Shown piece after piece: positions 1 through 17,382 of a DNA stretch of 17,382 nucleotides (position 1 is the stretch's first letter; the number at the start of each line of letters is the position of its first letter). The translations under genes and the position numbers were made by a program. Under the pieces are notes generated by a model, which saw nothing but the letters and a program-made list of their open reading frames with translations, had not been told where the DNA came from and did not search any database. This stretch comes from a virus (lineage: Duplodnaviria; Heunggongvirae; Uroviricota; Caudoviricetes). The DNA is taken from the IMG/VR virus record IMGVR_UViG_3300029473_000215. One strand, 5' to 3'.

Positions 1-1338
1 ATGCGTCAGAGAGAGCTTGCAGCCACCGCTAAGGCCTTCATGTTGGATAGGCCTGAAGTCTCACTACAGGAGCTTACAGAGCATCTCCGGTCTATGGCTG
101 AGCAGTTCCTGACAGACGCTAGTGACGATTACTGGAATGGACTTGAGGTCGCTACTTTGGTCGACGAGAAGTCCAACCTGAGGGAGCTAGCCGCTACGCA
201 AGCATTGAGTCTGGACCAGCAGAAGGGCATAAGGTTAGCGCTTGAAGTCCTGACCGCAGCACAGCAGAGGGTAGACACTGGTGATACCTCTGGTCTGATT
301 GATATTGTGATGAATAACCCTACGGATTACTCAACTATAGGCGACTCTACGTCAATTCTGAAGAATGAGCAGGGGGGTAGACCAGCAGTTTTCACACAGG
401 AGCGCCAACCTGAGGTCGCTATCTGTAGTTTTTCTGAGCTTGTGTCCTCGCTGCTGGCTGAGAAGGTCCAGACCCTGAAGTCCTCCAGCTACAAGGACCT
501 GTCGTCCTCACTGAATACCGTCTCTCGGTTCTTACCTGAAAACATGGACCTGATGTCCCGCTCTGAGTGGCTGGCTGTCAGGGACTCCATGCTGGCTGCT
601 GAGGTGAGACCATCGACAATCAACAAGCTGCTGACTAAAGCGAAGATGTGTCTTGATTACGGTCTGATGAATGGACAGCTTGAGGGCCGCAACCCTATTG
701 AACGGATGAAGCTGACCAAGGATATCGACTCCAAGCGCAGGGCGTTCACAGACGAGGAGCTGGAGAGACTTCTGGTCCGTGTTGAGTCTGAGTATCAGTT
801 CACACGACACACGGCTCACACGACCTCTGAGGCCCGTAGATGGGCGTCTCTGGTGTCTGTGGTCACTGGCGCTCGGTCTGCTGAGGTCTGCCACCTGACT
901 AAACGTGACATTGTAACCTTGGACAATGGGCTGGTCTGTATCGACATCAATGAAGATGGGGACGGGAAGTCTGTGAAGAACAAACATTCAGTCCGACTTG
1001 TGCCGTTGACCGATGGGGCCTGTGGTCTTGACCTGAAGTCCTTCCTCGAATGGGTAGACATGCAGCCTGACGAGGGTCCTCTCTTCGGGATGACTCCAAG
1101 CGCATACTCTAGCTGGTTTAACTCAAGGGTCATGACTGAAGCTCTGGGAGACGCTACGGATGTCTCTCTCCACAGTCTGAGGCACTGGCTAGCGACCAGA
1201 ATGAAAGAGCGTGGAGTCAATCTGGTGGACGCTCAGGGCATCTTAGGTCACAGCAGTCAGTCCATTACGTATGACCTGTACGGGAAAGGACATGCAGTCC
1301 AGAGACTCGCAGATGCATTGGCTGTGACGTTTGGTTAA
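1..1338 (+). CDS. Tyrosine-type site-specific recombinase (phage integrase family), 445 aa
   Basis: C-terminal catalytic motifs visible in translation: TGARSAEV (box I Arg), HSLRHW (His-x-x-Arg), LGHSSQSITYDLYGKG (conserved His and catalytic Tyr). ATG sits at window position 1, so the true N-terminus could lie upstream. Confidence 0.7.
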   Translation: MRQRELAATAKAFMLDRPEVSLQELTEHLRSMAEQFLTDASDDYWNGLEVATLVDEKSNLRELAATQALSLDQQKGIRLALEVLTAAQQRVDTGDTSGLIDIVMNNPTDYSTIGDSTSILKNEQGGRPAVFTQERQPEVAICSFSELVSSLLAEKVQTLKSSSYKDLSSSLNTVSRFLPENMDLMSRSEWLAVRDSMLAAEVRPSTINKLLTKAKMCLDYGLMNGQLEGRNPIERMKLTKDIDSKRRAFTDEELERLLVRVESEYQFTRHTAHTTSEARRWASLVSVVTGARSAEVCHLTKRDIVTLDNGLVCIDINEDGDGKSVKNKHSVRLVPLTDGACGLDLKSFLEWVDMQPDEGPLFGMTPSAYSSWFNSRVMTEALGDATDVSLHSLRHWLATRMKERGVNLVDAQGILGHSSQSITYDLYGKGHAVQRLADALAVTFG

Positions 1339-1487
1339 GTGACTGAAAGTATTAGCAACCACACTAAACTATCACTGTAGGGACTTCATCCCGCCTCTGG
1401 TCCTATGCGTAGCGTCCATGCGGGAGCCACCCAACTTAACTTTCAGCATCACTCATCCACTTTCACCATTACACGGAGGTATCCATC

Positions 1488-2222
1488 ATGGGCCGACCAG
1501 CCAAGCCACTAGACCGAATCAAACTGTACGACCATTACACCTTTGACCCAACCATTCCTCAGCTACTCCGAGTCAAGACACCTTACGGCCAATCTAAACG
1601 CGCCACAGGAGAGCCTGTTAGCTTCTATGTGCATCAAAATGGCTATGCCTCTGTCTCTGTACTGGGTAAGCGCTATCGTCGCTCCAGAGTCATCTACAGC
1701 CTGTGTAAGGGTCACATCCCTGAGGGAATGTTCGTTGACCATATCGACGGTAACCGACTCAATGACCATCCTGACAACCTGCGCCTAGTTACACCACAGC
1801 AGAACCAGTGGAACAGAGACAACCTTGGAGGCAAACTTCAGAACTATTTGCCGAAAGGGATTGACTTTGTAAAAGCTGAGGGTCGCTACAGAGCGCGTAT
1901 TAAGATAGACGGCAAGGTCCGGGCGAGACTCTCTTATGAGGTCAGGGAGCTTATGGTCTGGCTACAGGAACAGCGTCAGAAGCTACACGGTGAATTCGCC
2001 TACGATGGGTGGACCGACTGGACAGAGGCAGACCAGAAGCGAGCTGACGAGCGCTACGAGGTGTCCAAGCCTGAAGGGTATAAACCAAGGAAGCGACGTT
2101 TACCCGGCTACGCTAAGACGCATGATGGACTGAAAGTCTACATTGAGCCTAAAACTGGGCGTCTCTACTTTAAGAAGCTGAACAAGAAGCACTACATCGA
2201 CGAAGAGTCTGTGGTGGTTTGA
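1488..2222 (+). CDS. HNH homing endonuclease with AP2-like DNA-binding domain, 244 aa
   Basis: HNH motif VDHIDGNRLNDHPDNLRLVTPQQNQWN; downstream AP2-like segment GIDFVKAEGRYRARIKIDGKVRARLSYE; GGAGG SD (1475-1479) 8 nt before the ATG. Confidence 0.75.
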   Translation: MGRPAKPLDRIKLYDHYTFDPTIPQLLRVKTPYGQSKRATGEPVSFYVHQNGYASVSVLGKRYRRSRVIYSLCKGHIPEGMFVDHIDGNRLNDHPDNLRLVTPQQNQWNRDNLGGKLQNYLPKGIDFVKAEGRYRARIKIDGKVRARLSYEVRELMVWLQEQRQKLHGEFAYDGWTDWTEADQKRADERYEVSKPEGYKPRKRRLPGYAKTHDGLKVYIEPKTGRLYFKKLNKKHYIDEESVVV

Positions 2223-2369
2223 TGACGGTTGCTAACTTAGAGCGCCTCTGTAGGCCTTGGTGCGTCTGGTCTGTAGAGGAGGGGGCTAAATTATCAGTAT
2301 AGGGAAAATGGCAGACACTACCGCCTCTCCTTCCAGCAATGGGGGGAGGGGGGGCAGACCATAGATGCT

Positions 2370-2418
2370 GACTTAAAGTTAAGACTCTAAGTAAGACTGA
2401 AGTTATGACTCTAAGTTA
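2370..2418. repeat. Four tandem 12-bp direct repeats (consensus aGACTctAAGTtA), followed by an AT-rich tract (2417-2450) and a degenerate fifth copy near 2461-2473
   Basis: Read directly: gacttaaagtta / agactctaagta / agactgaagtta / tgactctaagtt. A G6-A-G7 tract lies just upstream (2341-2354). Confidence 0.7.
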
Positions 2419-2504
2419 ATTATTATCTTCTTATGAAGATTAATATAAGACCTATAGTCCAGACTTAAGTCAGACCTCATTCCTTCTATGTGTCTTCCTC
2501 AACC

Positions 2505-2780
2505 ATGGGGTCGACGATAGCTCCGTCAGTCTCCAGCTCAAAGCATCGGGACCCTGTATACATTGGGTCGTTGCTTGGGCTTCCACCTGCTAAGGAGCCG
2601 GGTCAGTGGCGTAGCTCTCTAAAAGACAAGCTCGTTAAAGATGCAATTTTGCATGTTTTAGCAGGACGCTCCGGTGGTTCGACTCCGGGTCGGCATTCAG
2701 ATTGGCAAAGTAGAAGACACCGAGTCGACACAGTACAAGCGTTTTGCTCAGACCAAAGTTGGAAAGCTACTGAGGAATAG
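2505..2780 (+). pseudogene. Partial duplicate of the KilA-N gene 5' region (KilA-N N-terminal motif fragment); may be a remnant or a small paralog
   Basis: Translation ...PPAKEPGQWRSSLKDKLVKDAILHVLAGRSGGSTPG... matches ...PSAKEPGQWRSSVRTLLDQDANLHVAHGGSTPG... of the 3011-3769 protein. Shares an exact 26-nt block (ctgctaaggagccgggtcagtggcgt) and a 17-nt block (ggtggttcgactccggg); no similarity downstream. Confidence 0.3.
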
Positions 2781-3010
2781 GCAGAAAATCCGCCTTATCC
2801 TTAGGGTCGAAGGACTTAACGGGTCCAACTTTGGGCTGGATTTAAAAGAGGAAACTTTCCTTTATCAACTATGGTCTTCACACGACCTCATCATCAATCC
2901 TCAAGTCTTTCTGTATGTCTCCTGTTGCCTGTGAGTCTCCCTATCGTTGGGGGCTTGAGTAGGCTTTCAGGGTGTGACTTCAGGAGGCATAACAAAAGGA
3001 GTACAACGAT

Positions 3011-3769
3011 ATGTCAACTCAACCCTTAATGAAGCATGAAGTAGTTCTTCCGGTCATCGTTGACGGCTATCACTGGGCCTGTAATCAGGACCGTATGTGG
3101 AACCTGAACGAGCTACATAAAGAGCTTGAGCTTCCATCTGCTAAGGAGCCGGGTCAGTGGCGTTCTAGCGTCAGGACGCTTCTTGACCAAGATGCAAATT
3201 TGCATGTTGCTCATGGTGGTTCGACTCCGGGGACATGGGCTACTGAAGAGGCGGCTATTGCCTATGCGATGTGGGTCTCACCTGATTTCTACCTTAAGGT
3301 CATCCGTGCTTTCATCGCTTTACGTAACGACAAAGTGTCGGAAGCTAAGGCGCTGGCGCAGGACTCCAAGGAACTTAAGGGTCTCAAGCCTATAGCCCGT
3401 AACTGGCTGGAAAAGCTGGATAACCCGAAGCAGGGCCACACCCTGACAGAGTGTCTTAAGAATCTCGACTTCAGGTTAGGTACAAAGCTGGTATCAGCCA
3501 AGGCTCTTAATGCCGTATTGAAGTCAGGGCGTATAGCTAATCCCTTCTATAGTCGCAAGCTGGACGGTCGAGGACAGCCTGTATTTGACATCTCATCAGG
3601 TGGCTGGATGACCAGCTTCAATCCTAAGGGTCTGGAGAACGGCTATTACCGTCTTCAGGATAACCACTATAACGGTCAGGAGGGGCTTAAGGTCCTCACC
3701 AAGGGTTACGAGTGGCTTAAGTCCAACAAGGTCGAGCTGGTTCGTCTGTGCGCTAAGGGAGGACTCTAA
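3011..3769 (+). CDS. KilA-N domain protein, 252 aa
   Basis: KilA-N/APSES-like signature ...HGGSTPGTWATEEAAIAYAMWVSPDFYLKVIRAF; SD aaaaggag 10 nt upstream of the ATG. Confidence 0.7.
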   Translation: MSTQPLMKHEVVLPVIVDGYHWACNQDRMWNLNELHKELELPSAKEPGQWRSSVRTLLDQDANLHVAHGGSTPGTWATEEAAIAYAMWVSPDFYLKVIRAFIALRNDKVSEAKALAQDSKELKGLKPIARNWLEKLDNPKQGHTLTECLKNLDFRLGTKLVSAKALNAVLKSGRIANPFYSRKLDGRGQPVFDISSGGWMTSFNPKGLENGYYRLQDNHYNGQEGLKVLTKGYEWLKSNKVELVRLCAKGGL

Positions 3770-3770
3770 G

Positions 3771-3944
3771 ATGATTGACCCGCGCACACCTGAGGGCCGC
3801 ATGACTCTCCGTTACCGTGGCTATCGGACTGAAGTCCTCCTCAGAGAGCTTGGTCTAGACCCGGAAGATGAGACCCGCCAGCACCAATCCCGAGACGAGC
3901 TAATAGCCCAACTGGTCGCTATGAAACTGTCGCTAGCAAGCTAG
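3771..3944 (+). CDS. Small hypothetical protein, 57 aa (below the ORF-track length cutoff)
   Basis: ATG one nucleotide after the KilA-N stop (TAAgATG); GGAGG at 3758-3762, 8 nt upstream; uninterrupted frame to TAG at 3942-3944; translation MIDPRTPEGRMTLRYRGYRTEVLLRELGLDPEDETRQHQSRDELIAQLVAMKLSLAS. Confidence 0.45.
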   Translation: MIDPRTPEGRMTLRYRGYRTEVLLRELGLDPEDETRQHQSRDELIAQLVAMKLSLAS

Positions 3945-4081
3945 CTGTCTCCTAACCGTTAGTAGCTCACCTACTCAATACCTGATTTTAAAACCTTTTG
4001 AGATGACCGATGCGGGGAGACCCGTAGGCATAACTGTGTCTGCGATACCGATAGTCTCAACTCTCAATAGGAGTACACCTT

Positions 4082-4573
4082 ATGTTATTCAACAACAACG
4101 ACTGGAAACTGTCAGTCACCGACATCAATCTCTACGAGAATACTGTGAGTCTGGACGGTCAGTCCTATCCGTTGTCGCTCGCTATCAAGACCCTCATTCC
4201 GGGCTACCTGTCCGGCCTGCCAGCCACCAGCCGTGAGTCTATGGAGCTACTGGAAGCTCTGGCTGAAGCTGGCGTGACCATTGGTAACTTCTTCAGTAAT
4301 GACCTGATGACCGCCTACCAACGCCGCCAGATGAATAAGCGTGTCGAGGCTGAGCGTATCGCTAAAGAGCTGGCGTCTCAGAAAGAGCGTACCCGCGAAA
4401 TGTTCATGACCGAAGACGAATGGCAGAAAGAGTTACAACGCCGCGAACAGGTCAAAGCTGAACGCCGGACCTATGGTGAGAACCTCCGCAGCGCTACCCA
4501 TTCCGCTGGTCGTTCCCGTGCCGCTATTGTCGCTGACCTTGAGTCAGGCGGTAACTGGCTGGACAGCCTGTAA
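4082..4573 (+). CDS. Hypothetical protein, 163 aa, with charged, probably helical C-terminal half (scaffold-like is a guess)
   Basis: AGGAG SD upstream of the ATG; C-terminal region rich in E/R/K/Q heptad-like runs (RRQMNKRVEAERIAKELASQKERTREMF...QKELQRREQVKAERR). No family recognised. Confidence 0.6.
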   Translation: MLFNNNDWKLSVTDINLYENTVSLDGQSYPLSLAIKTLIPGYLSGLPATSRESMELLEALAEAGVTIGNFFSNDLMTAYQRRQMNKRVEAERIAKELASQKERTREMFMTEDEWQKELQRREQVKAERRTYGENLRSATHSAGRSRAAIVADLESGGNWLDSL

Positions 4574-4641
4574 GACTCACAAGTGGTCCTGACCTGATGT
4601 CGGGACCCACGTATCTAAACTAATTTAGGAGATTGATTATT

Positions 4642-5628
4642 ATGACTATGACTAAAGACAGCTATCAGTTCGGCATTGAGCCAGTACGTATCACCGACAC
4701 CGACAACATTCAGGTCAATGAAGGTCTGCCGACTAACGCTGACCCACAGGTCTATGCCCTCCAGTTAGCTAAGACGGTTAAGGCTATGCTGAACGGTGTA
4801 CTTAAAGACGCTCAGGATAACATTCCGTTCCCTGTAGAAGTCCTGCCTACCCGCAATAGCCTGCCTACCCCAATCATCGCCCACACTCTGTCTGACCGCT
4901 CTGTGGTCGTCCCTGTACGCGGTGGTGAGCGACCTGAAGTCGTGACCGCTCCGTCTGGTCAGGAGATTGTGGTAGAGCCTATTGAGCAAGCTATCCTTGT
5001 GTCTCACCAGACCAAGCTATGGGACGTCAAGTCTTCCACTGGTTTCACTCAGGGTACGCTCCAGCAGGACGCTATGAACATCTGTGAGAATGTGGTCCGT
5101 ACCATCAACGCTCGCATGGTTGACGTTCTGGAGTCCTCCAAGCTGCTGAAGACTGTAGAGCTGCCAGTCCTGACTGGAAGCCTGACCACTAAGGCAGACG
5201 CTATCATGGACGCTCTGTACGAGAACACCGAGCCTTCCTTTGGTTCTGAGGTTACTGATTACGGTATCATCGCCCATGAGTCACACCTCAAGGCTCTCTC
5301 CCGTCTGGCTGCTAAGCAGGGCTTCGGTGGTGAAGACGCTATCGTGGATATGCTGGGTACCGACATCGCGTATTACAACGGTGAGGACAAAGGTGTGTTC
5401 ATGCTGGCTAAACGCTTCACGGCCCTGAGCTTCGGCTGCTTCCGTCACGACGGTGAGAATATTACGGTCGTCCTTTCACGTGATGGCGACTCTCAGTCCC
5501 ATGACCTTGAGATTCTCGGTAAAGTGTTCGTTGTCGCTGAAGCTGCTACGACCATCAAGATGGGCACTGGCTCAGCTACTGCCGTCCTGCCTGTAGTCAA
5601 ACGCCTGAGTTTCACTAAGACAAGCTAA
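4642..5628 (+). CDS. Hypothetical protein, 328 aa (possibly structural; unrecognised)
   Basis: Long ORF with AGGAG at 4627-4631, 10 nt before ATG 4642 (the ORF track starts at an upstream TTG, 4633); followed by a strong intrinsic terminator. No motif recognised. Confidence 0.65.
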   Translation: MTMTKDSYQFGIEPVRITDTDNIQVNEGLPTNADPQVYALQLAKTVKAMLNGVLKDAQDNIPFPVEVLPTRNSLPTPIIAHTLSDRSVVVPVRGGERPEVVTAPSGQEIVVEPIEQAILVSHQTKLWDVKSSTGFTQGTLQQDAMNICENVVRTINARMVDVLESSKLLKTVELPVLTGSLTTKADAIMDALYENTEPSFGSEVTDYGIIAHESHLKALSRLAAKQGFGGEDAIVDMLGTDIAYYNGEDKGVFMLAKRFTALSFGCFRHDGENITVVLSRDGDSQSHDLEILGKVFVVAEAATTIKMGTGSATAVLPVVKRLSFTKTS

Positions 5629-5647
5629 CTAACAATAACGACTTATT

Positions 5648-5686
5648 GGTCAGACTTCCGTAACTGGATGTCTGGCCTTTATTTTG
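5648..5686 (+). terminator. Rho-independent terminator after the 328-aa gene
   Basis: GGTCAGAC (5648-5655) pairs with GTCTGGCC (5670-5677) with one G-U pair, inner TCC/GGA pairs, followed by TTTATTTTG. Confidence 0.5.
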
Positions 5687-5728
5687 TACTAGTAATCTAG
5701 TTCATGGGTGCGGAAAGAGGAGGACCTA

Positions 5729-5839
5729 ATGGACCTACACAAAGTCTATCTCGTAGTCTTCCTGCTAAAGCTAGCTCTGGTAGTCGTGCTGATGGTCTGG
5801 CCTAAAGTACGATGGTTTCTGACAGAAAAATGTGAATGA
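5729..5839 (+). CDS. Small hydrophobic peptide, 36 aa, predicted single transmembrane helix (below ORF-track cutoff)
   Basis: GAGGAGGA SD (5717-5724) 5 nt before ATG 5729; translation MDLHKVYLVVFLLKLALVVVLMVWPKVRWFLTEKCE; stop TGA at 5837-5839. Confidence 0.4.
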   Translation: MDLHKVYLVVFLLKLALVVVLMVWPKVRWFLTEKCE

Positions 5840-5940
5840 CCATCTAATACATTGAGCCAGCAGACTTCCCCCCATAGTCCCGCCTCAAGTCCTGACCGAG
5901 GCCACCGGGGGGCCTGACCAGCCGTCTAGACATCCCGTCT

Positions 5941-5974
5941 AATGACACAAGTCTGGCACAAAGAATGACACAAG
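5941..5974. repeat. Two exact 11-bp direct repeats (aatgacacaag) at 5941-5951 and 5964-5974, 57-90 bp from the island/chromosome junction
   Basis: Read directly from sequence. Confidence 0.6.
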
Positions 5975-5982
5975 GTCTTGAC

Positions 5983-7440
5983 TCAATGCAGGACCTCAGG
6001 CCTACTAAGGGTCCGCTTCAAGTCCTTGAAGTTCCAGATGAACTTAATGGGCACATCCAGTTTATCTTTGCCCCGGACGCCGTCGCGGATTGCCGTCATT
6101 TTGGGGCCATGATCGATAGCATCTGTCCAGCTGAAGCAGGAAATTGACGTTTTGACCGGATTATCCAGCACCGGCAGGCGCTCTATGGTAATGGTATAGG
6201 TCGATTCACGCGCGCCACTATTTCCGCCGCTGATGCCGACATTGCCCGTCAGAATAGGCAACATAGCAATAGCGCGTGCGGTCAGCTCGCCGTTTGCCTG
6301 GCGTTGTGGCCCCCAGCCCTGGCAGGTATAAGCGGGTTTTGCTGTGCCAATTTCACGCGCCAGTTTGATGATACGGTCCACCGGGATACCGGTAATTTGC
6401 GAAGCCCACTGCGGCGTTTTCGCTGTTTTATCGTCACCTTCACCAAGAATATAGGCTTTATAGTGACCATTTTTGGGTGCATCTGCGGGTAAGGTTTTTT
6501 CGTCATAGCCGACGCAGTATTTATCGAGAAAAGGTTGATCAACGAGATTTTCGTTAATCAATACCCAGGCAATACCCGCAACCAGCGCGGCATCGGTGCC
6601 CGGGCGAATAGGAAGCCATTCATCTTCACGACCAGCAGCCGTATCGGTATATCGCGGATCGATAACAATCATTTTGGCGTTCGATTTCTCGCGCGCTTTT
6701 TCAAGAAGATAAGTGATGCCACCGCCGCTCATGCGGGTTTCTGCCGGGTTGTTACCAAACATCACGACCAGCTTGCTGTTTTCAATATCCGTGGTGCTGT
6801 TGCCATCATTACTGCCGTAGGTGTAGGGCATGGCACAGGAAATTTGCGCAGTGCTGTAGGAGCCATACTGGTTGAGTGAACCGCCGTAGCAGTTCATCAG
6901 GCGTTTGACCGCCGAGGCTGATGGCGAAGAGCGGGTCATATTGCCGCCAACAATCCCCGAAGAGTACTGAATATATACAGCCTCATTGCCATATTGTTCG
7001 ACGGTTTTTTTCAGACTACTGGCGATAGTATCCAGGGCTTCATCCCAGCTAATCCGTTCGAATTTGCCTTCACCGCGTTTACCCACGCGTTTCATTGGGT
7101 AATTCAAGCGATCGGGATGATTAATACGCCGGCGGATGGAGCGACCGCGCAAACAGGCGCGTACTTGATGATTGCCATACTCGTCGTTGCCGGTGTTGTC
7201 AGTTTCCACCCAGATCACTTCATTATCTTTAACATGTAGACGAAGTGCACAGCGGCTACCACAGTTGACGGAACAGGCACCCCAGACCACTTTCTCGCTG
7301 GCCTGTTGTACCGCTGCCGCTGCACTGCGTAGGGTGAACGGTAAAGAAAAACCGCCTGCAGCCAGCGCCAGAGAACCTATCGCGGTAGATTTAACGAGTG
7401 TTCTGCGGCTGATGCCCACCATTCGTTCATTTTTGGACAT
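5983..7440 (-). pseudogene. ynfE: 3'-truncated ynfE (DmsA-family molybdopterin oxidoreductase, Tat-secreted): about 470 native codons plus a 15-codon foreign tail
   Basis: N-terminus MSKNERMVGISRRTLVKSTAIGSLALAAG (twin-arginine signal) and body match E. coli YnfE/DmsA from memory. Homology ends after ...DVPIKFIWN (codon at 6033-6031), then FKDLKRTLSRPEVLH-stop from island DNA. Full-length protein is about 800 aa. Confidence 0.85.
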
Positions 7441-11593: not shown

Positions 11594-12613
11594 ATGAAAA
11601 GCATATTAATTGAAAAACCGAATCAACTGGCGATTGTCGAACGTGAAATACCCACCCCGTCAGCGGGTGAAGTACGAGTAAAAGTGAAACTTGCCGGAAT
11701 TTGTGGTTCAGATAGCCATATTTATCGTGGGCATAATCCTTTTGCGAAATATCCGCGCGTCATTGGTCATGAATTCTTTGGCGTCATTGATGCAGTGGGT
11801 GAAGGCGTGGAAAGCGCCAGAGTCGGTGAACGTGTTGCTGTCGATCCGGTGGTCAGCTGTGGGCATTGCTATCCGTGCTCTATAGGTAAACCGAACGTTT
11901 GTACGACACTGGCTGTATTAGGTGTGCACGCTGACGGTGGTTTCAGTGAATATGCCGTGGTTCCGGCAAAAAATGCGTGGAAAATTCCTGAAGCAGTGGC
12001 CGATCAATATGCGGTAATGATCGAACCTTTTACCATTGCGGCTAACGTAACCGGACATGGTCAACCGACTGAAAATGATACCGTTCTGGTTTATGGTGCC
12101 GGTCCAATCGGCCTGACGATCGTTCAGGTATTAAAAGGCGTCTATAACGTTAAAAATGTGATTGTTGCCGATCGCATTGATGAACGACTGGAAAAAGCGA
12201 AAGAGAGCGGGGCTGACTGGGCGATTAATAACAGCCAGACACCGCTTGGCGAGATTTTCACTGAAAAAGGCATCAAGCCGACATTAATTATCGATGCGGC
12301 TTGTCATCCTTCTATCCTGAAAGAGGCCGTAACGCTGGCTTCTCCAGCGGCACGTATTGTATTGATGGGGTTCTCCAGTGAACCGTCTGAAGTGATTCAG
12401 CAAGGAATTACCGGAAAAGAACTCTCTATTTTCTCTTCACGCTTAAATGCAAATAAATTCCCGATCGTTATCGACTGGTTAAGTAAAGGGTTAATTAAAC
12501 CAGAAAAATTAATTACCCATACGTTTGATTTCCAGCATGTTGCTGATGCCATTAGTTTATTTGAACAGGATCAAAAACATTGCTGCAAAGTCTTACTCAC
12601 TTTTTCTGAATAA
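11594..12613 (+). CDS. rspB: Starvation-sensing protein RspB (Zn-dependent alcohol dehydrogenase family), 339 aa
   Basis: Translation MKSILIEKPNQLAIVEREIPTPSAGEVRVKVKLAGICGSDSHIY... with Zn-ligand motifs GHEFFG and CGHCYPC; AAGGAG SD; 11-nt gap after rspA (operon). Confidence 0.93.
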   Translation: MKSILIEKPNQLAIVEREIPTPSAGEVRVKVKLAGICGSDSHIYRGHNPFAKYPRVIGHEFFGVIDAVGEGVESARVGERVAVDPVVSCGHCYPCSIGKPNVCTTLAVLGVHADGGFSEYAVVPAKNAWKIPEAVADQYAVMIEPFTIAANVTGHGQPTENDTVLVYGAGPIGLTIVQVLKGVYNVKNVIVADRIDERLEKAKESGADWAINNSQTPLGEIFTEKGIKPTLIIDAACHPSILKEAVTLASPAARIVLMGFSSEPSEVIQQGITGKELSIFSSRLNANKFPIVIDWLSKGLIKPEKLITHTFDFQHVADAISLFEQDQKHCCKVLLTFSE

Positions 12614-12626
12614 TACCAATAACGGC

Positions 12627-12657
12627 GAGTAAGTAGTACGCATCTTACCTCTTTTTT
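12627..12657 (+). terminator. Candidate rho-independent terminator of rspAB
   Basis: Imperfect stem gagtaag...cttacctc followed by a TTTTTT run at 12652-12657, 14 nt after the rspB stop. Confidence 0.4.
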
Positions 12658-12670
12658 AGAGATAACCATT

Positions 12671-12790
12671 ATGACAATAGAAAAACACGAAAGAAGCACT
12701 AAGGATTTGGTGAAAGCAGCAGTATCGGGATGGCTGGGCACTGCGCTTGAATTTATGGATTTCAAGAGTCATACGTGTCAACTATATTGA
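12671..12790 (+). pseudogene. ydfJ: 5' fragment (39 codons) of an MFS transporter gene (ydfJ-like), truncated by prophage insertion
   Basis: Translation MTIEKHERSTKDLVKAAVSGWLGTALEFMDF resembles the start of ProP/KgtP-type MFS transporters, then ends after 8 unrelated codons. In K-12, ydfJ is, to my recollection, split by the Qin prophage next to rspB. Confidence 0.5.
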
Positions 12791-12801
12791 TAAATATTAA
12801 A

Positions 12802-14082
12802 TTAATTTTTCATTGCTTCGTTATGGGGCATGGTTGGGGCAAACTCGCTTAACTGTGTATTTAACAAAGCTACCTGTGCATTATTGTTTTCAGACATCCA
12901 TTTTCCGTATACCTGAAATACCATTTGCGCATCTGCATGGCCCATCTGGTTTGCTATAAATGCCGGGTTAGCACCAGCTGTCAGCGACCAGCAGGCATAA
13001 GTATGTCTCGACTGATATGATTTTCGATGGCGGAGTCCGGCACGTTTTATCGCTGCGTCCCACATCTGCCTTATTGAGTCAACGGTAAAATGGTCACCAT
13101 AATTTTTTACTCCCGCTGACACTTCAGGTTGAAAAACAAAGGTGCATTTTTGTTTTTCTGTTCTGCCATACTCTCTGAGGTGAACATCAATGATATGCTC
13201 TTTGCTCAGTCTCGTTAATGTCATCTGACTCCGGAGAGCGTCGATTGCTGGCTTAATAAGATGAATGACCCGATTGGTTCCCGCCTGTGTTTTTGGTACC
13301 GTGAAACGGTCTTTTGCTAAATTTCTCCTGATCATCATTGTTCCATTTTTCAGATCTATGTCCTCCCATCCAAGTGCACACAGCTCACCAGGGCGAACGC
13401 CAGTATAAACAGAAACACACCATAAATTTTTTGCTTGCTGATTTCTGCACGCATCGATAAGACGGATAAATTCCTCCCGCGAAAGAGGATCCGGAATGGT
13501 TCTTGATTCCTTTAATGGCGAGATCCCCTTAAACGGATTATCTGGCAGGTAACCGTTATCAACACCAAACTGGAACACGGCGTTAAGATTTGTCATGTAA
13601 TTATTTACAGTTACAGCCGATCTTCCTGGTTGTGTAACAATATAGTTACTTTTGGGGATCTGGTATCCAGTCAGTAGCTCTTTACGAACCTCCAGTAATT
13701 TTTCTTTATTAATCGATGAGGCAAGATTTTTTTCACCGATTATGCTCAGGATATTTTTGATGACGGCACGGTATGTGTTGAGTGATGTTTTGGCGACTTC
13801 AGTTTCTTTCAGTGCCAGAAATTTTTCAGCCAGTTCTTTTATGGTTAAATCTTGTCGGGCCTCACCAAATTTTTCCAGATTGCGTGAGGAGGGAAACTGT
13901 TTTGCATAGTCGAAAACACCAGTTTTTATTGCGTAACAAACAGAGGAGCGTAGTTCACCTGCAACGCGCCTGTTTTTTGCTGTGTCAGGAACCCCCAGAT
14001 TTTCCCTGACTCTTACGCCTTTATAGACAAACCAGATACGTAATTTCCCTCCATGGTTTTCCACGCCTGTCGGATATTTCAT
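12802..14082 (-). CDS. Lambdoid phage integrase (tyrosine recombinase with N-terminal arm-binding domain), about 426 aa
   Basis: N-terminus MKYPTGVENHGGKLRIWFVYKGVRVRE resembles Rac IntR-type arm-binding domains; C-terminus carries RHRKSYQSRHTYAC...GHADAQMVFQVYGKW. Start chosen at 14082; an alternative ATG is at 14097. Confidence 0.9.
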   Translation of the reverse strand: MKYPTGVENHGGKLRIWFVYKGVRVRENLGVPDTAKNRRVAGELRSSVCYAIKTGVFDYAKQFPSSRNLEKFGEARQDLTIKELAEKFLALKETEVAKTSLNTYRAVIKNILSIIGEKNLASSINKEKLLEVRKELLTGYQIPKSNYIVTQPGRSAVTVNNYMTNLNAVFQFGVDNGYLPDNPFKGISPLKESRTIPDPLSREEFIRLIDACRNQQAKNLWCVSVYTGVRPGELCALGWEDIDLKNGTMMIRRNLAKDRFTVPKTQAGTNRVIHLIKPAIDALRSQMTLTRLSKEHIIDVHLREYGRTEKQKCTFVFQPEVSAGVKNYGDHFTVDSIRQMWDAAIKRAGLRHRKSYQSRHTYACWSLTAGANPAFIANQMGHADAQMVFQVYGKWMSENNNAQVALLNTQLSEFAPTMPHNEAMKN

Positions 14083-14116
14083 TTCAACTTCTCTCATTAG
14101 TTAGTGTGGCTTTTAG

Positions 14117-14368
14117 TCAAGTAAGATGACGTCTTGGTCTCGCTGATGCCTGGCGCTCAATCCAGCGATCAATTTCTTCCAGGTTGTAAAAGCATGGACT
14201 GTTATCCCATGGCATACCGTCATGAGCGACATGCTTATATTCCCTTCCTTCCATAAACGATTTTTCCCGGGCCTTTTTTAGCGTACCTTTTTTTATTCCT
14301 TTCAGCGCAATTAACTGCTCTTCGGATACCCATTTGCCGGGAGAGACAATCATGATTACTTCGCTCAT
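14117..14368 (-). CDS. Excisionase-like protein, 83 aa
   Basis: Small basic protein immediately upstream of int on the same strand; sequence ...GKWVSEEQLIALKGIKKGTLKKAREKSFMEGREYKHV... resembles the lambdoid prophage excisionase-like family from memory. Confidence 0.65.
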   Translation of the reverse strand: MSEVIMIVSPGKWVSEEQLIALKGIKKGTLKKAREKSFMEGREYKHVAHDGMPWDNSPCFYNLEEIDRWIERQASARPRRHLT

Positions 14369-14397
14369 CGATTTCTTTATCTCTTACATCAGACGAG

Positions 14398-14429
14398 CGC
14401 CGGTTGCAGAATACCAGTCACAACCGGCG
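14398..14429. other. 9-bp perfect inverted repeat with 14-nt spacer between the exo and xis genes
   Basis: cgccggttg (14398-14406) and caaccggcg (14421-14429); no adjacent U-tract on either strand. Confidence 0.3.
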
Positions 14430-14440
14430 ACAGTTGAACA

Positions 14441-16912
14441 TTAAGAATCAGCCTGACTCGGGATCAGTTTTTGCCAGATAACTGAAACGTATTTTGCCTG
14501 GTAACGGGCGTCGTCAAGTGCATTATGGCGCTCACCTTCGAATGGAATAGCCGTTCTGGCATCGAAGTCTATGGCTTTCCCCAGCTCAACGATTGTGCGT
14601 ACATCGCGATCGTTGTAGTAACGCCACGGGCAGGGGATCCCCTGCCGTTCGTATGAACGGCGCAAAATCGTGTTGTCGAAGTTGGCTCCATTTCCCCAAA
14701 CCTGAACAAAAAATTCACCGGAGTTTTCGTCGATAAATTCCCGCAATTGTAACAGTGCATCATCTAACGGGATTTCATCGGTCATAATGGCAGATTGCGC
14801 TTCGCGTGATTGCTTAAGCCACCATTTAATGGTGTCCCGATCAATGACTCCGCCAGCAGTTTCCAGATCGATAGTCTTACTAAATTCCGGTCCCATATCT
14901 CCGGTTTGCGGATCGAAAAATATTGCACCTATTGAGATGATCGGGGCATCAGGATTTTTTCCCATGGTTTCAAGGTCGATCATTAGATGGTCACACGTCC
15001 TGCTGGTGGATGTGATTTCGTGATGACCGTTCACCTTAATTGGGTGATCTGCCGTCTCGCCAGTTTCATTATCGCTATTGTGATGCTGATTGCCGCCAGT
15101 GTTCTCCTTGTGTGGATGTTCAGCGCCTTCCATTTCCTCCGGATCATCTTCCTGAACTTCAACCTGATACTCTTCATCGAATGTTTCTTGGTATGTTGCG
15201 TCGCCCATCACCGCGCCACAATCAGGGCAGTTGCCGCCGCCGGTCTGACCGCAGGCGGTGCAGACTTTTTCCACTTCCTGTTGCGCCACTGGTTCAGGCT
15301 GTTTCGTTTCTGGCTCGTTTTGTAACGCATTTGGACTGTTTTGTTCCGCTTTTTGGTAGTTCCGTTCCGATTCATGCTGGTTCTGGTTCACAGAATCGCG
15401 GGTCTGGATCCCCTTAACCCATTTCGGATCATTCGGGTCACTAATCCCTTCAACAAATTCACCACGTGATGCAGCAAGCAACTTATCGGCGTCAGGCTGG
15501 CTGATATTGGCTGCCTGCATAATTTTGTTTACTTCGTCAGCGGTAACTTTTATCGGCTCTGGTTGTTCTGAATCTTCAGCGGTATCTACATTTTGCGGTA
15601 AGCCCGTGTATGTGCCATTTTTTCGGGCAAAATATTCTTCTTTTGTGATTTCAGTGGCGCCAGCAGCCAGTGCCTTATCCAGACCAGAAAGTTTGTTTGC
15701 GCGACCGTATTTTTCTCCGTCCTTATCTGCGAAGAGGAAATAGAACGGCCCCTCACGCTCTACAGATGGTTCAGCTTCCGGCGCGGTTTCATTTTTTGGG
15801 ATATCAGATACCTCAGTTTCCACTGTATCAGTTTGTGTTTCTGATGACTGGAGAACATCAACAGTGCCCAGGTCTGTTTCTTCATTCTCAAACACGCCCT
15901 TTGTCGTCAGGTATTCGCAGATATATTTGTTCAGTGCTACGGGATCTTTGTGAATGTCGATCGGACGCTCACGGACAAGGCCAAAAATAGTTTGGCGGTC
16001 GTAGCGAAGGGCATCAGGCTGTTTGCGCATTGATGCCGAGATACGCTTCCAGTCTTCGCGGTCGTTGTCGATAACTTCTTTTTTTGCCCAGCGATGGATG
16101 CTGCCGTCAATGTTTCCGGCATCCACATCACCAGGCCAGAGAGCGTAGGCCAGTTCGTCATCCAGTGTTTTCCATGTCTGCTTGTATTCGCGATGAATGG
16201 CAGCAATGACCGGGCTGATTTTTCCTGTTGAATTTTCAGTGTACTGTTGATTGGCTCTGGCGCGGGCGAGATCAACAACAGACGTGTATTTTCCGGTTTC
16301 CTTGCGTTCACCTTCGCGACGTTTTTTCCAGATGCGCATCTCTGCCTGAATTTCGGGCCATTTAGCACCAGGAATACATTTATGCTTAACCCACCCAATG
16401 GCGTGCAACTTAAGCTCCGGATACATGGCGTTAACTTCTGGCATTTTCATCAACGCTTCAACGATATGTCCGTCGAATGTTGCCATGTCTTCCTGCAACA
16501 ATTCCTGTGCGCTAATAACCATATCAACGGTGATGTTTTCACATGTGTCGAACTTAACCATGACAGCGTTCTGTACTTCAGGGGCCAGCTTGTCAAAAGT
16601 GACGTTCATCGGATCGGATTCAGTCTCAACCGGGACAAAAGAAGCAGACTCCTCATCCCAGCGGTTTTCCTGCATATATTCAGCATCCCATGAATCGAGG
16701 GCAGGGCGGGGTATGCCAGGTTTATCCTCGCAGACAATAAATTTATAAGCGCAGTCCTGAGCAGCCGGATAATGTTCCAGGAATTGCCAGTGAAATTTTG
16801 CTCGAGCACGGCGTTCGTCGCCAGCTTCAATGGCTGTGGCTACAGCCACAGCGCCTTCTTCCCTTGTTGCCAGTTCGTCAGGAATAGCGGCGCAAATAAA
16901 GACTTTACTCAT
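14441..16912 (-). CDS. Exodeoxyribonuclease VIII-like protein with C-terminal DnaQ-like (DEDDh) 3'-5' exonuclease domain, 823 aa
   Basis: Central segment KLLAASRGEFVEGISDPNDPKWVKGIQTRD and Cys4 cluster CTACGQTGGGNCPDCGAVMGDATYQETF match RecE from memory; C-terminus has DEDDh motifs MIDLETMG, WGNGANFDNTIL and HNALDDARYQ instead of the RecE PD-(D/E)xK nuclease; GAGG SD upstream of the ATG. Confidence 0.85.
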   Translation of the reverse strand: MSKVFICAAIPDELATREEGAVAVATAIEAGDERRARAKFHWQFLEHYPAAQDCAYKFIVCEDKPGIPRPALDSWDAEYMQENRWDEESASFVPVETESDPMNVTFDKLAPEVQNAVMVKFDTCENITVDMVISAQELLQEDMATFDGHIVEALMKMPEVNAMYPELKLHAIGWVKHKCIPGAKWPEIQAEMRIWKKRREGERKETGKYTSVVDLARARANQQYTENSTGKISPVIAAIHREYKQTWKTLDDELAYALWPGDVDAGNIDGSIHRWAKKEVIDNDREDWKRISASMRKQPDALRYDRQTIFGLVRERPIDIHKDPVALNKYICEYLTTKGVFENEETDLGTVDVLQSSETQTDTVETEVSDIPKNETAPEAEPSVEREGPFYFLFADKDGEKYGRANKLSGLDKALAAGATEITKEEYFARKNGTYTGLPQNVDTAEDSEQPEPIKVTADEVNKIMQAANISQPDADKLLAASRGEFVEGISDPNDPKWVKGIQTRDSVNQNQHESERNYQKAEQNSPNALQNEPETKQPEPVAQQEVEKVCTACGQTGGGNCPDCGAVMGDATYQETFDEEYQVEVQEDDPEEMEGAEHPHKENTGGNQHHNSDNETGETADHPIKVNGHHEITSTSRTCDHLMIDLETMGKNPDAPIISIGAIFFDPQTGDMGPEFSKTIDLETAGGVIDRDTIKWWLKQSREAQSAIMTDEIPLDDALLQLREFIDENSGEFFVQVWGNGANFDNTILRRSYERQGIPCPWRYYNDRDVRTIVELGKAIDFDARTAIPFEGERHNALDDARYQAKYVSVIWQKLIPSQADS

Positions 16913-17005
16913 TTTGTTTTAACCTCATGACAGATTTAAGGATGAACAAATCCCTGCCATTGCTGGCATATAAGAATGAAACCGGATATTTATTACGGAA
17001 CTGTT

Positions 17006-17197
17006 TTAAAGACCTGCCGGGATTTCGATATTATCCTGGTGAATAACTTTATCGACCGGGTAACAGTTACCGGGAATTTTCTGTTCGGTTGCTGCAGTCA
17101 TACACTCCTGCATTGTCCTGTGAACACTGACTGCAATATCAACTGGCACTCCGGAAACAAGAAAAACTGTCAGAACAAGCGCAAATGCTGAATTCAT
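17006..17197 (-). CDS. Small hypothetical protein with N-terminal hydrophobic segment, 63 aa
   Basis: AAGGA SD 8 nt before ATG 17197; translation MNSAFALVLTVFLVSGVPVDIAVSVHRT...; start overlaps the stop of the upstream gene (ATGA). The ORF track begins at an upstream ATG, 17251. Confidence 0.5.
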   Translation of the reverse strand: MNSAFALVLTVFLVSGVPVDIAVSVHRTMQECMTAATEQKIPGNCYPVDKVIHQDNIEIPAGL

Positions 17198-17382
17198 TGT
17201 GCACATCCTTTTGGCATCAGACGTAAACGAGCCAGCATTGAAACAATGCATATTTTATTTAATAGCTCCCGTTCTTGTTTTCTCTTGTTAATGGCATCTT
17301 CAGTAAATACAGGGTTACTGATAGTGACACCAATTTCAAAACAACCTTCAGACGTATTAACGTTTGGTAATAACGTTTTCAT
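17194..17382 (-). CDS. Small hypothetical protein, at least 62 aa; start coincides with the window edge so it may be 5'-partial
   Basis: Open frame on the minus strand ending with a TGA that overlaps the next ATG (translational coupling); no family recognised. Confidence 0.4.
   Translation of the reverse strand: MKTLLPNVNTSEGCFEIGVTISNPVFTEDAINKRKQERELLNKICIVSMLARLRLMPKGCAQ

What the first reader, a model, noticed from the sequence alone, without database searches (positions are those of the whole stretch)
12760..12802. Prophage att junction inside the ydfJ-like gene, immediately beside an intact integrase
The MFS-transporter reading frame loses homology after ...ALEFMDF (about 12764) and stops at 12788-12790; the integrase stop codon is at 12802-12804. 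The att core must therefore lie in this roughly 40-bp AT-rich segment. Unlike K-12, where intQ is, to my recollection, a pseudogene, the integrase and excisionase here appear intact, so this prophage may still be excision-competent.
Basis: partly seen in the sequence, partly recalled or inferred. Interest (0 to 1): 0.45.

Follow-up and report, generated by a model that had tools for sequence, protein, structure and literature searches.

The report
Known Qin-type prophage junction in ydfJ
This is the left attachment junction (attL) of the well-known Qin/mEp460-type lambda-like prophage that sits in the E. coli ydfJ gene in about half of all strains; it is real, its integrase and excisionase are full length, and it is ordinary and already described.

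Summary
ydfJ homology ends at 12763/12764. The fusion ORF stops at 12788-12790. The integrase stop codon is at 12802-12804. The stretch between them is 76% AT.

The junction is attL of a Qin/mEp460-type lambdoid prophage. Comparing attB, attL, attR and attP gives an exact 11-bp core, TTATGGATTTC, at window 12753-12763. 12764-12801 is phage P'-arm DNA.

The junction occurs in about 2,720 of 5,426 complete E. coli genomes. About 2,011 genomes have the empty site, and four phage genome records carry the predicted attP. K-12's Qin annotation ends on this same core, and the ydfJ att site has been defined by PCR in the literature.

Int (426 aa) differs at 5 residues from the Int of the functional phage mEp460_ev081. 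Xis is identical. A full-length int-xis block is the common state; K-12's truncated intQ is the exception.

Excision competence is plausible but cannot be shown. The source metagenome contig ends before attR. The window also carries a private 1-bp insertion at 12786 that breaks the conserved IHF-consensus site next to the core.

Verdict: already known, low interest.

The parts
11594..12613 (+). rspB (Zn-dependent oxidoreductase), the chromosomal gene upstream of ydfJ
   Evidence: ORF list; annotated as rspB in E. coli C, LH13-b and WEC at the equivalent position
12671..12790 (+). ydfJ 5' fragment fused to phage DNA (39-aa ORF, counterpart of K-12 ynfP). Codons 1-31 (12671-12763) are ydfJ; the last 8 codons and the TGA stop are phage P'-arm sequence
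   Evidence: Translation. Joining 12671-12763 to the E. coli C 3' ydfJ part gives an uninterrupted 455-aa MFS ORF. K-12 ynfP spans the same junction
12753..12763 (.). att core TTATGGATTTC: the 11 bp identical in attB, attL, attR and attP. Strand exchange must occur within it
   Evidence: Four-way comparison. The reconstructed attB is 100% identical to real empty sites and the reconstructed attP is 98-99% identical to four phage genome records. The K-12 Qin annotation ends exactly on this repeat
12748..12766 (.). Extended imperfect att region TGAAT-TTATGGATTTC-AAG. attB and attP also share TGAA (with a 1-bp indel) on the left and nAG on the right
   Evidence: The length agrees with the '18- or 19-bp att sequence' defined by PCR for ydfJ prophages in PMC8112680 S7 Fig legend; I could not see the figure
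12764..12801 (.).
   Evidence: Identical apart from one indel to attP of mEp460_ev081 and to attL of E. coli C and WEC; AT content
12779..12792 (-). Disrupted IHF-consensus (H'-like) site. Relatives read TATCAAATAGTTG, a perfect WATCAANNNNTTR match; here it reads TATCAATATAGTTG
   Evidence: It is the only consensus match in the 6.6-kb mEp460 locus and lies 16 bp from the core. There is no match at attL in the window. IHF binding is inferred, not tested
12786..12786 (.). Private 1-bp insertion (A) in the P' arm
   Evidence: Absent from 7 other contigs that encode the identical Int. The best full-length matches among 2,720 complete genomes span 80 bases for 81 query bases. It is present in the source metagenome contig L007, which is 100% identical to the window. 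It may be an assembly error
12824..12841 (+). Two tandem TGGGGCA motifs (12824-12830 and 12835-12841, 11 bp apart): candidate P' arm-type Int-binding sites, inside the last codons of int
   Evidence: The motif recurs at -137 (with related copies at -152, -127 and an inverted one at -112) in the P arm of mEp460 attP; 0 of 2,000 shuffles reach the count. The motif was chosen post hoc, so this is an inference
12802..14082 (-). int: tyrosine integrase, 426 aa (an upstream ATG at 14097 would give 431 aa)
   Evidence: Pfam Arm-DNA-bind_2 (1.6e-23) plus Phage_integrase (4e-18). Active-site residues align to Tn1549 Int. It differs at 5 aa from mEp460_ev081 Int and at 1 aa from WEC Int
14117..14368 (-). 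xis: excisionase, 83 aa
   Evidence: Pfam DUF1233 putative excisionase, 1.6e-31. Identical to the Xis of mEp460_ev081 and E. coli C. The exact sequence is on at least 1,000 contigs
14441..16912 (-). Full-length ydfE-type exonuclease (823 aa), upstream of xis-int on the same strand
   Evidence: Pfam Rv2179c-like 3'-5' exoribonuclease domain; YdfE_N and YdfE_C domains on identical contigs. It is truncated by IS2 in K-12
17006..17382 (-). ydfD and dicB (lysis and cell-division-inhibitor genes of the dicB operon), the last prophage genes in the window
   Evidence: ORFs; annotation of the equivalent genes in E. coli C and WEC; DicB and DUF1482 Pfam hits on the identical contig

Best explanation
Window 12753-12841 is the attL site of a Qin/mEp460-type lambdoid prophage. 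The phage integrated by tyrosine-integrase site-specific recombination into codons 28-31 of the E. coli MFS-transporter gene ydfJ. Recombination took place between the phage attP and the chromosomal attB within an 11-bp identical core, TTATGGATTTC (12753-12763). This left the promoter and first 31 codons of ydfJ fused to phage DNA at attL, and left the promoterless remainder of ydfJ at attR 20-46 kb away. To the right of the core lies the phage P' arm. It holds an AT-rich spacer with an IHF-consensus site, which is broken here by a private 1-bp insertion. It also holds two tandem TGGGGCA motifs, inferred to be arm-type Int sites, that overlap the 3' end of int. Int, Xis and the upstream exonuclease are transcribed leftward toward the core as the tail of the dicB (pL-like) operon, as in lambda. 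Shown here: the junction, the core, the reconstruction of intact attB and attP, the full-length int and xis, and their near-identity to those of a functional phage. Inferred: the IHF and arm-type sites, the operon-level control, and excision competence. I put the chance that this particular copy can excise at roughly 50%, because its attR was not seen and the 1-bp insertion has an unknown effect.
For: The 11-bp repeat TTATGGATTTC is the only shared sequence of 9 bp or more between the window's attL and E. coli C attR. The attB/attL/attR/attP alignment switches partners exactly at its edges. Joining at the core restores a 455-aa ydfJ ORF. The resulting 600-bp attB is 100% identical to real empty sites and is present in 2,011 complete genomes. 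The reciprocal 600-bp attP is found contiguous at 98.3-99.3% identity in phage records mEp460_ev081, PhiR42_1, Tritos and HannyBb. The junction is in 2,720 of 5,426 genomes. The K-12 annotation of Qin (1632277..1652745) begins and ends on this repeat. The Int domains and active-site residues R230, K264, R359, H382 and Y392 are present. Int is 421/426 identical and Xis 83/83 identical to those of mEp460_ev081, which the literature calls a functional temperate phage. The window's prophage DNA (12764-17382) is 99.96% identical to strain WEC, where the prophage is 45.6 kb, carries a full structural gene set, is bounded by the two core copies, and is colinear with mEp460_ev081 (83% covered at 96% identity). 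The literature describes Qin integration at the 5' end of ydfJ (PMC6379469) and a PCR-defined 18/19-bp att for ydfJ prophages (PMC8112680).
Against: This genome's own attR was not observed: the window comes from a metagenome contig that ends about 500 bp beyond it. A 1-bp insertion at 12786 is unique to this contig. It breaks the IHF consensus and shifts the phasing between the core and the candidate arm sites. The window's Int carries G324, where every compared relative has R, and P180, which among the compared sequences is shared only with WEC. The position of the first active-site His is Tyr (Y356), though this is also true of the functional phage's Int. The IHF and arm-type sites rest on consensus or repeat matches only.
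Confidence: 0.93

Rival explanations
1. The junction is a genuine attL, but this copy of the prophage is 'grounded' (cannot excise) despite intact int and xis. Possible causes are the cis-acting 1-bp insertion in the IHF H'-like site, the Int substitutions (A180P, R324G), or a damaged or missing attR or a prophage cluster at the other end.
For: The insertion is private to this contig and destroys the only IHF-consensus match next to the core. G324 is not seen in E. coli C, mEp460, WEC, LH13-b, K-12 or an O26 Int. attR was not seen. Qin-locus prophages are often rearranged, with sizes of 11-97 kb reported.
Against: The exact Int sequence recurs on 24 or more contigs, so it is not a one-off lesion. 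No catalytic residue is affected. The int comparison with E. coli C and mEp460 shows fewer non-synonymous than synonymous changes per site (about 0.16-0.18, on very small counts). The 1-bp insertion could be a metagenome assembly error. A one-base spacing change in an IHF site has an unknown effect.
Confidence: 0.35
2. One reading: the att core or crossover lies inside the AT-rich 12764-12801 segment between the end of ydfJ homology and the int stop codon.
For: Only the argument from position: the segment lies between the last ydfJ-homologous base and int.
Against: 12764-12801 has no counterpart in attB or attR. It continues uninterrupted from the phage side in attP of mEp460_ev081. The only sequence shared by all four sites is 12753-12763. 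A core is duplicated at both junctions, so it necessarily sits inside the part that still looks like ydfJ.
Confidence: 0.02
3. The junction arose by a non-integrase event (an IS-mediated or illegitimate rearrangement that truncated ydfJ), and the neighbouring integrase is incidental.
For: IS elements are frequent in this prophage family.
Against: No IS end lies at the junction. The reciprocal products attB and attP both exist in nature at 98-100% identity with base-exact boundaries. The same junction is shared by thousands of genomes.
Confidence: 0.01

Closest known systems
Qin cryptic prophage of E. coli K-12 (attL at ynfP/ydfJ'-intQ; annotated 1632277..1652745 in NC_000913.3)
   Same: Same chromosomal site, same 11-bp core, same P'-arm sequence (99% identity), and the same gene order rspB - ydfJ' - int - ... 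- ydfD - dicB.
   Different: K-12 has lost the first ~40 codons of int, all of xis and most of the ydfE exonuclease to an IS2 remnant, and no Qin excision is detected. Here all three genes are full length. The window also has a 1-bp insertion at 12786 that K-12 lacks.
Temperate phage mEp460_ev081 (LR597641.1), and the phage records Tritos, HannyBb and PhiR42_1
   Same: They carry the attP predicted from attL x attR recombination at the core. Int is 98.8% identical, Xis 100%, and the tail fibre-pin-ydfK-attP-int-xis-exo order is the same.
   Different: These are phage genome records in the attP form; mEp460_ev081 is reported as a functional temperate phage. The window holds only the integrated left end. 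Their IHF-consensus site is intact, and their Int has A46, A180, Y301, H311 and R324.
PPydfJ prophages of STEC/EPEC (Nakamura et al. 2021, PMC8112680)
   Same: They integrate into ydfJ. The att was defined by aligning attP (a PCR amplicon from O26:H11 strain 11368), attL, attR and an empty attB, giving an 18/19-bp att. This agrees in length with TGAA(T)TTATGGATTTCnAG.
   Different: Those prophages carry T3SS effector loci and often form clusters. I did not compare their sequences with the window, apart from an O26 strain RM10386 Int, whose locus I did not check, which is 427/431 identical.
Phage lambda Int/Xis/IHF attP-attB system
   Same: It works alike: a heterobivalent tyrosine integrase with an N-terminal arm-binding domain, a small Xis, and int-xis at the end of the leftward early operon next to attP. 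The IHF-consensus site is about 16 bp from the core, and repeated candidate arm sites lie at about +70/+81 and about -110 to -150. The geometry is lambda-like from my knowledge of lambda attP.
   Different: The arm-binding domain family differs (Pfam Arm-DNA-bind_2, not lambda's), as do the Xis family (DUF1233), the core sequence and the target (inside a coding gene). The P' arm sites overlap the int coding end. No binding has been tested.

Membership tests
Qin/mEp460-type ydfJ-integrating lambdoid prophage (attL end) | Insertion point inside ydfJ at the core TTATGGATTTC (codons 28-31), with rspB upstream | tested here: met
   The K-12 Qin boundaries are identical.
Qin/mEp460-type ydfJ-integrating lambdoid prophage (attL end) | Phage-side sequence (P' arm, int, xis, exo, ydfD, dicB) homologous and colinear with Qin and mEp460 | tested here: met
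   99.96% identity to the WEC prophage, 99.4% to E. coli C Qin, 99.2-99.7% to the retained K-12 parts, and 94.6% to mEp460_ev081.
Qin/mEp460-type ydfJ-integrating lambdoid prophage (attL end) | A second core copy followed by the 3' part of ydfJ at the other prophage end (attR) in the same genome | not testable with these tools
   The source contig ends about 500 bp past the window. The feature is met in the relatives E. coli C, K-12 and WEC.
Tyrosine recombinase, lambda-Int-like heterobivalent integrase | C-terminal catalytic domain with the R-K-H-R-H/W-Y active-site residues | tested here: met
   Phage_integrase Pfam hit, 4e-18. R230, K264, R359, H382 and Y392 align with Tn1549 Int. The first-His position is Y356, which is identical in the functional phage's Int.
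Tyrosine recombinase, lambda-Int-like heterobivalent integrase | N-terminal arm-type DNA-binding domain and cognate arm-type sites in attP | tested here: inconclusive
   The domain is present (Arm-DNA-bind_2, 1.6e-23). The candidate TGGGGCA arm sites come only from repeat analysis and binding is untested.
Tyrosine recombinase, lambda-Int-like heterobivalent integrase | Catalytic activity (integration and excision) | not testable with these tools
   The only support is indirect: 98.8% identity to the Int of a phage reported as a functional temperate phage.
Excisionase (recombination directionality factor), DUF1233/PF06806 type | Small protein of the family encoded immediately upstream of int on the same strand | tested here: met
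   83 aa, PF06806 at 1.6e-31. It lies 34 bp upstream of int and is identical to mEp460_ev081 Xis.
IHF-dependent att site (lambda H'-like element) | WATCAANNNNTTR consensus in the arm adjacent to the core | tested here: not met
   The consensus is perfect in mEp460, E. coli C, K-12, WEC and a Stx2a-phage relic. In the window the spacing is N5 because of the inserted A at 12786.

The most novel reading that the evidence does not exclude
The private 1-bp insertion at 12786 could be a real, naturally occurring cis-acting 'grounding' mutation. By breaking the IHF H'-like site and shifting the core-to-arm-site phasing, it would lock an otherwise intact mEp460-like prophage with working int and xis into the chromosome. 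That would be an example of prophage domestication beginning at the att site rather than in the integrase gene.
Probability: 0.08. Interest if true: 0.3.

Novelty: already known. Interest (0 to 1): 0.1.

Why it matters
It matters little beyond correct annotation. The junction marks where a very common lambdoid prophage splits ydfJ, so the 5' stub (39 aa here) and the 3' remainder should be annotated as two halves of one interrupted transporter gene. The core should be placed at 12753-12763. The full-length int-xis block means that Qin-type elements outside K-12 should not be assumed immobile. The closest complete relative, in strain WEC, is a 45.6-kb prophage with a full structural gene set. 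Such elements carry dicB/dicF, toxin-antitoxin and cold-shock genes, and in STEC they carry effector or Stx genes. None of this is new: the site, its prevalence and the att sequence are published.

Tried and rejected
No sequence there is shared with attR or attB, so this was rejected.

(2) I tried to see this genome's own attR. Exact look-up of the window's Int returned the source contig (ENA ERZ27272283 k119_54898, 100% identical), but it ends 501 bp past the window. All other contigs also break near dicB. The tool does not allow walking outward with proteins from outside the window.

(3) The promoter and terminator scan of 12400-13000 found nothing on either strand, so there is no evidence for a sib-like or terminator element at the junction.

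(4) Rfam found no RNA family in the window itself. DicF lies just outside it, on L007.

(5) I used the Stx2a-phage records as a diverged attP for footprinting. They turned out to hold only a relic (core, P' arm and about 330 bp of the int 3' end at the record end) with a different left arm. They are useful only for showing conservation of the IHF consensus and the TGGGGCA pair.

(6) A scan of IMG/VR for the attP junction gave 3 contigs. Their origin, free phage or prophage prediction in isolate genomes, is unclear, so I give them no weight.

(7) The dN/dS estimate for int rests on only 5 non-synonymous and 8-9 synonymous differences. It is suggestive only.

Full report
OBSERVATION. The window is the E. 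coli ynf-rspA-rspB-ydfJ region followed by the left end of a prophage.

- An ORF starting at 12671 encodes MTIEKHERSTKDLVKAAVSGWLGTALEFMDF, then eight unrelated residues (KSHTCQLY) and a TGA stop at 12788-12790.
- On the opposite strand, a 426-aa integrase ORF (431 aa from an upstream ATG) ends with its stop codon at 12802-12804. An 83-aa ORF (14117-14368) and an 823-aa ORF (14441-16912) lie upstream of it.
- Bases 12764-12801 are 76% A+T, against 51.5% for the window.

WHAT IT IS. A 1-kb query across the junction hits 5,157 of 5,426 complete E. coli genomes, and 2,662 of them cover both sides.

- In E. coli C and K-12 the same locus is annotated as rspB, integrase (intQ), and the Qin prophage genes (dicB, dicA/C, relBE, cspB/F/I, pinQ, ydfK), followed by the N-terminally truncated ydfJ and ydfI.
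- The only repeat of 9 bp or more shared between the window's junction and the E. coli C far junction is TTATGGATTTC, at window 12753-12763.
- Lining up the four sites shows a clean partner switch at the edges of these 11 bp:
  - attB: ...cttgaatTTATGGATTTCcagttat...
  - attL (window, K-12, E. coli C): ...cttgaatTTATGGATTTCaagagtc...
  - attR: ...ctgtgaaTTATGGATTTCcagttat...
  - attP (phage mEp460_ev081): ...ctgtgaaTTATGGATTTCaagagtc...
- Joining the window's ydfJ stub to the E. coli C 3' part at the core restores a 455-aa MFS ORF.
- The resulting 600-bp attB is 100% identical to real empty sites and is present in 2,011 genomes.
- The reciprocal 600-bp attP is contiguous at 98.3-99.3% identity in four phage genome records: mEp460_ev081, PhiR42_1, Tritos and HannyBb.
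- The K-12 annotation of 'cryptic prophage Qin' (1632277..1652745) starts on the first base of one core copy and ends on the base before the other. K-12 ynfP is the ydfJ-stub fusion ORF across attL.

The feature is therefore attL of a Qin/mEp460-type prophage. 12764-12801 is purely phage P'-arm DNA.

ANATOMY AND LIKELY MECHANISM. The integrase has an Arm-DNA-bind_2 N-terminal domain and a Phage_integrase catalytic domain.

- Alignment to Tn1549 Int places R230, K264, R359, H382 and the nucleophile Y392. The first-His position is Y356.
- The 83-aa protein is a DUF1233 excisionase.
- The organisation is lambda-like: attP-int-xis-exo at the end of the leftward dicB operon. The expected mechanism is Int-catalysed strand exchange within the 11-bp core, with Xis and host factors directing excision. 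This rests on established knowledge of lambda-family integrases and was not tested here.

Two arm features can be proposed.

- First, in mEp460_ev081 the only WATCAANNNNTTR (IHF consensus) match in 6.6 kb is TATCAAATAGTTG, 16 bp to the right of the core. It is also perfect in E. coli C, K-12, LH13-b and a 90%-diverged Stx2a-phage relic.
- Second, TGGGGCA occurs twice in tandem, 11 bp apart, at 12824-12830 and 12835-12841, inside the last codons of int. It recurs with variants at about -152, -138 and -127, and inverted at -112, in the P arm. None of 2,000 shuffles reaches this count, but the motif was picked post hoc.

I infer that these are an H'-like IHF site and arm-type Int sites. If so, the functional attL extends to at least 12841.

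A PRIVATE CHANGE IN THIS COPY. The window reads CTAT-A-TTG where all relatives read CTATTTG.

- The extra A at 12786 turns the IHF consensus spacing from N4 to N5. No consensus match remains at attL.
- It also creates the TGA at 12788-12790. Elsewhere the fusion ORF is 42 aa, and in K-12 it is 36 aa.
- The window is 100% identical to ENA metagenome contig ERZ27272283 k119_54898.
- Seven other contigs encoding the identical Int lack the insertion.
- Among 2,720 complete genomes with the junction, the best full-length matches span 80 bases for 81 query bases. Two records in the >=99% identity band were not inspected, and two records fall short of 80% coverage; these may be the same two.
- The insertion is either a genuine private mutation or an assembly error.

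INTACTNESS AND EXCISION COMPETENCE.

- Xis is identical to that of mEp460_ev081.
- Int differs from mEp460_ev081 Int at A46S, A180P, Y301H, H311Q and R324G, none of them a catalytic residue. S46, H301 and Q311 are common polymorphisms, seen in K-12 or O26. P180 is shared with strain WEC. G324 was not seen in any compared relative. Even so, the exact protein occurs on 24 or more contigs.
- K-12 intQ is confirmed as an annotated pseudogene. It lacks the N-terminus next to an IS2 remnant, and xis is gone. No Qin excision is detected in K-12 (PMC3105296).
- An intact int-xis block is the norm. The contiguous attL-int-xis block is present in 2,356 of 5,426 genomes, while K-12-type records cover only 74% of it.
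- The window's prophage DNA is 99.96% identical (one mismatch plus the indel over 4,619 bp) to strain WEC.
- In WEC the prophage is 45.6 kb, with terminase, portal, capsid, tail and fibre genes. It is bounded by the two core copies and is colinear with mEp460_ev081 (83% covered at 96% identity), with the circular permutation expected for integration at attP.
- mEp460_ev081 is described as a functional temperate phage from infant faeces (bioRxiv 10.1101/2023.04.14.536235).

Excision competence is therefore plausible for the family. For this copy it cannot be decided, because attR is off the contig and the effect of the extra A is unknown.

COMPARISON WITH WHAT IS KNOWN.

- Integration of Qin at the 5' end of ydfJ, the loss of 28 N-terminal codons and the promoter, a prevalence of 48% among 638 genomes, and sizes of 11-97 kb are described in PMC6379469. 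My counts agree: 2,720/5,426 is 50% occupied.
- Nakamura et al. (PMC8112680) defined the att of ydfJ prophages experimentally. They aligned a PCR-amplified attP from O26:H11 strain 11368 with attL, attR and an empty attB, and reported an 18/19-bp att. This matches in length the imperfect TGAA(T)TTATGGATTTCnAG seen here.

The element is a member of this known family, and nothing about the junction is new.

VERDICT. The finding is already known and of low interest. The only unusual detail is the private 1-bp insertion in the IHF-consensus site, which may be an assembly artefact.

Noticed in passing
window 1-6029: A second integrative island is inserted inside ynfE; homology to an intact ynfE starts at 6030. 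It carries a partial site-specific integrase (1-1338), an HNH endonuclease (1488-2222), a KilA-N protein (3011-3769) and hypothetical ORFs (4082-4573, 4633-5628). ynfE is left as a 485-aa stub (5983-7440, minus strand). A related island with an extra IS66 is in strain LH13-b, and only 77 complete genomes cover 80% or more of the window.
   Followed up: partly
window 12786: A 1-bp insertion (A) is unique to this contig. It breaks the conserved IHF-consensus site next to the att core and creates the TGA stop of the ydfJ-stub ORF. It may be a MEGAHIT assembly error.
   Followed up: yes
L003 about 3075-3090 (mEp460_ev081 P arm, about 215 bp left of the core); L005 1501: The P arm of mEp460/Qin attP contains a degenerate core-like copy, TGAATGATTTCCAG. 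In Stx2a-phage records (for example LC727844) the DNA to the left of that pseudo-core is joined directly to the true core. This amounts to a 215-bp indel between core-like sequences. Those records end about 330 bp into a relic of this int.
   Followed up: partly
L007 276-327 (just beyond window end 17382): The DicF sRNA (Rfam RF00039, 72.5 bits) lies about 175 bp beyond the end of the window on the source contig. The contig stops about 275 bp further on.
   Followed up: no
window 12753-12763: The att core contains the ATG (TT-ATG-GAT-TTC) that K-12 and RefSeq use as the start codon of the truncated 427-aa ydfJ at attR. Integration therefore leaves a potentially translatable but promoterless 3' gene.
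   Followed up: no
L017, L018, L019 (IMG/VR contigs): Three IMG/VR contigs carry the exact attP-form junction CCTGTGAATTATGGATTTCAAGAGTCAT. Their origin, excised phage or prophage prediction, was not examined.
   Followed up: no
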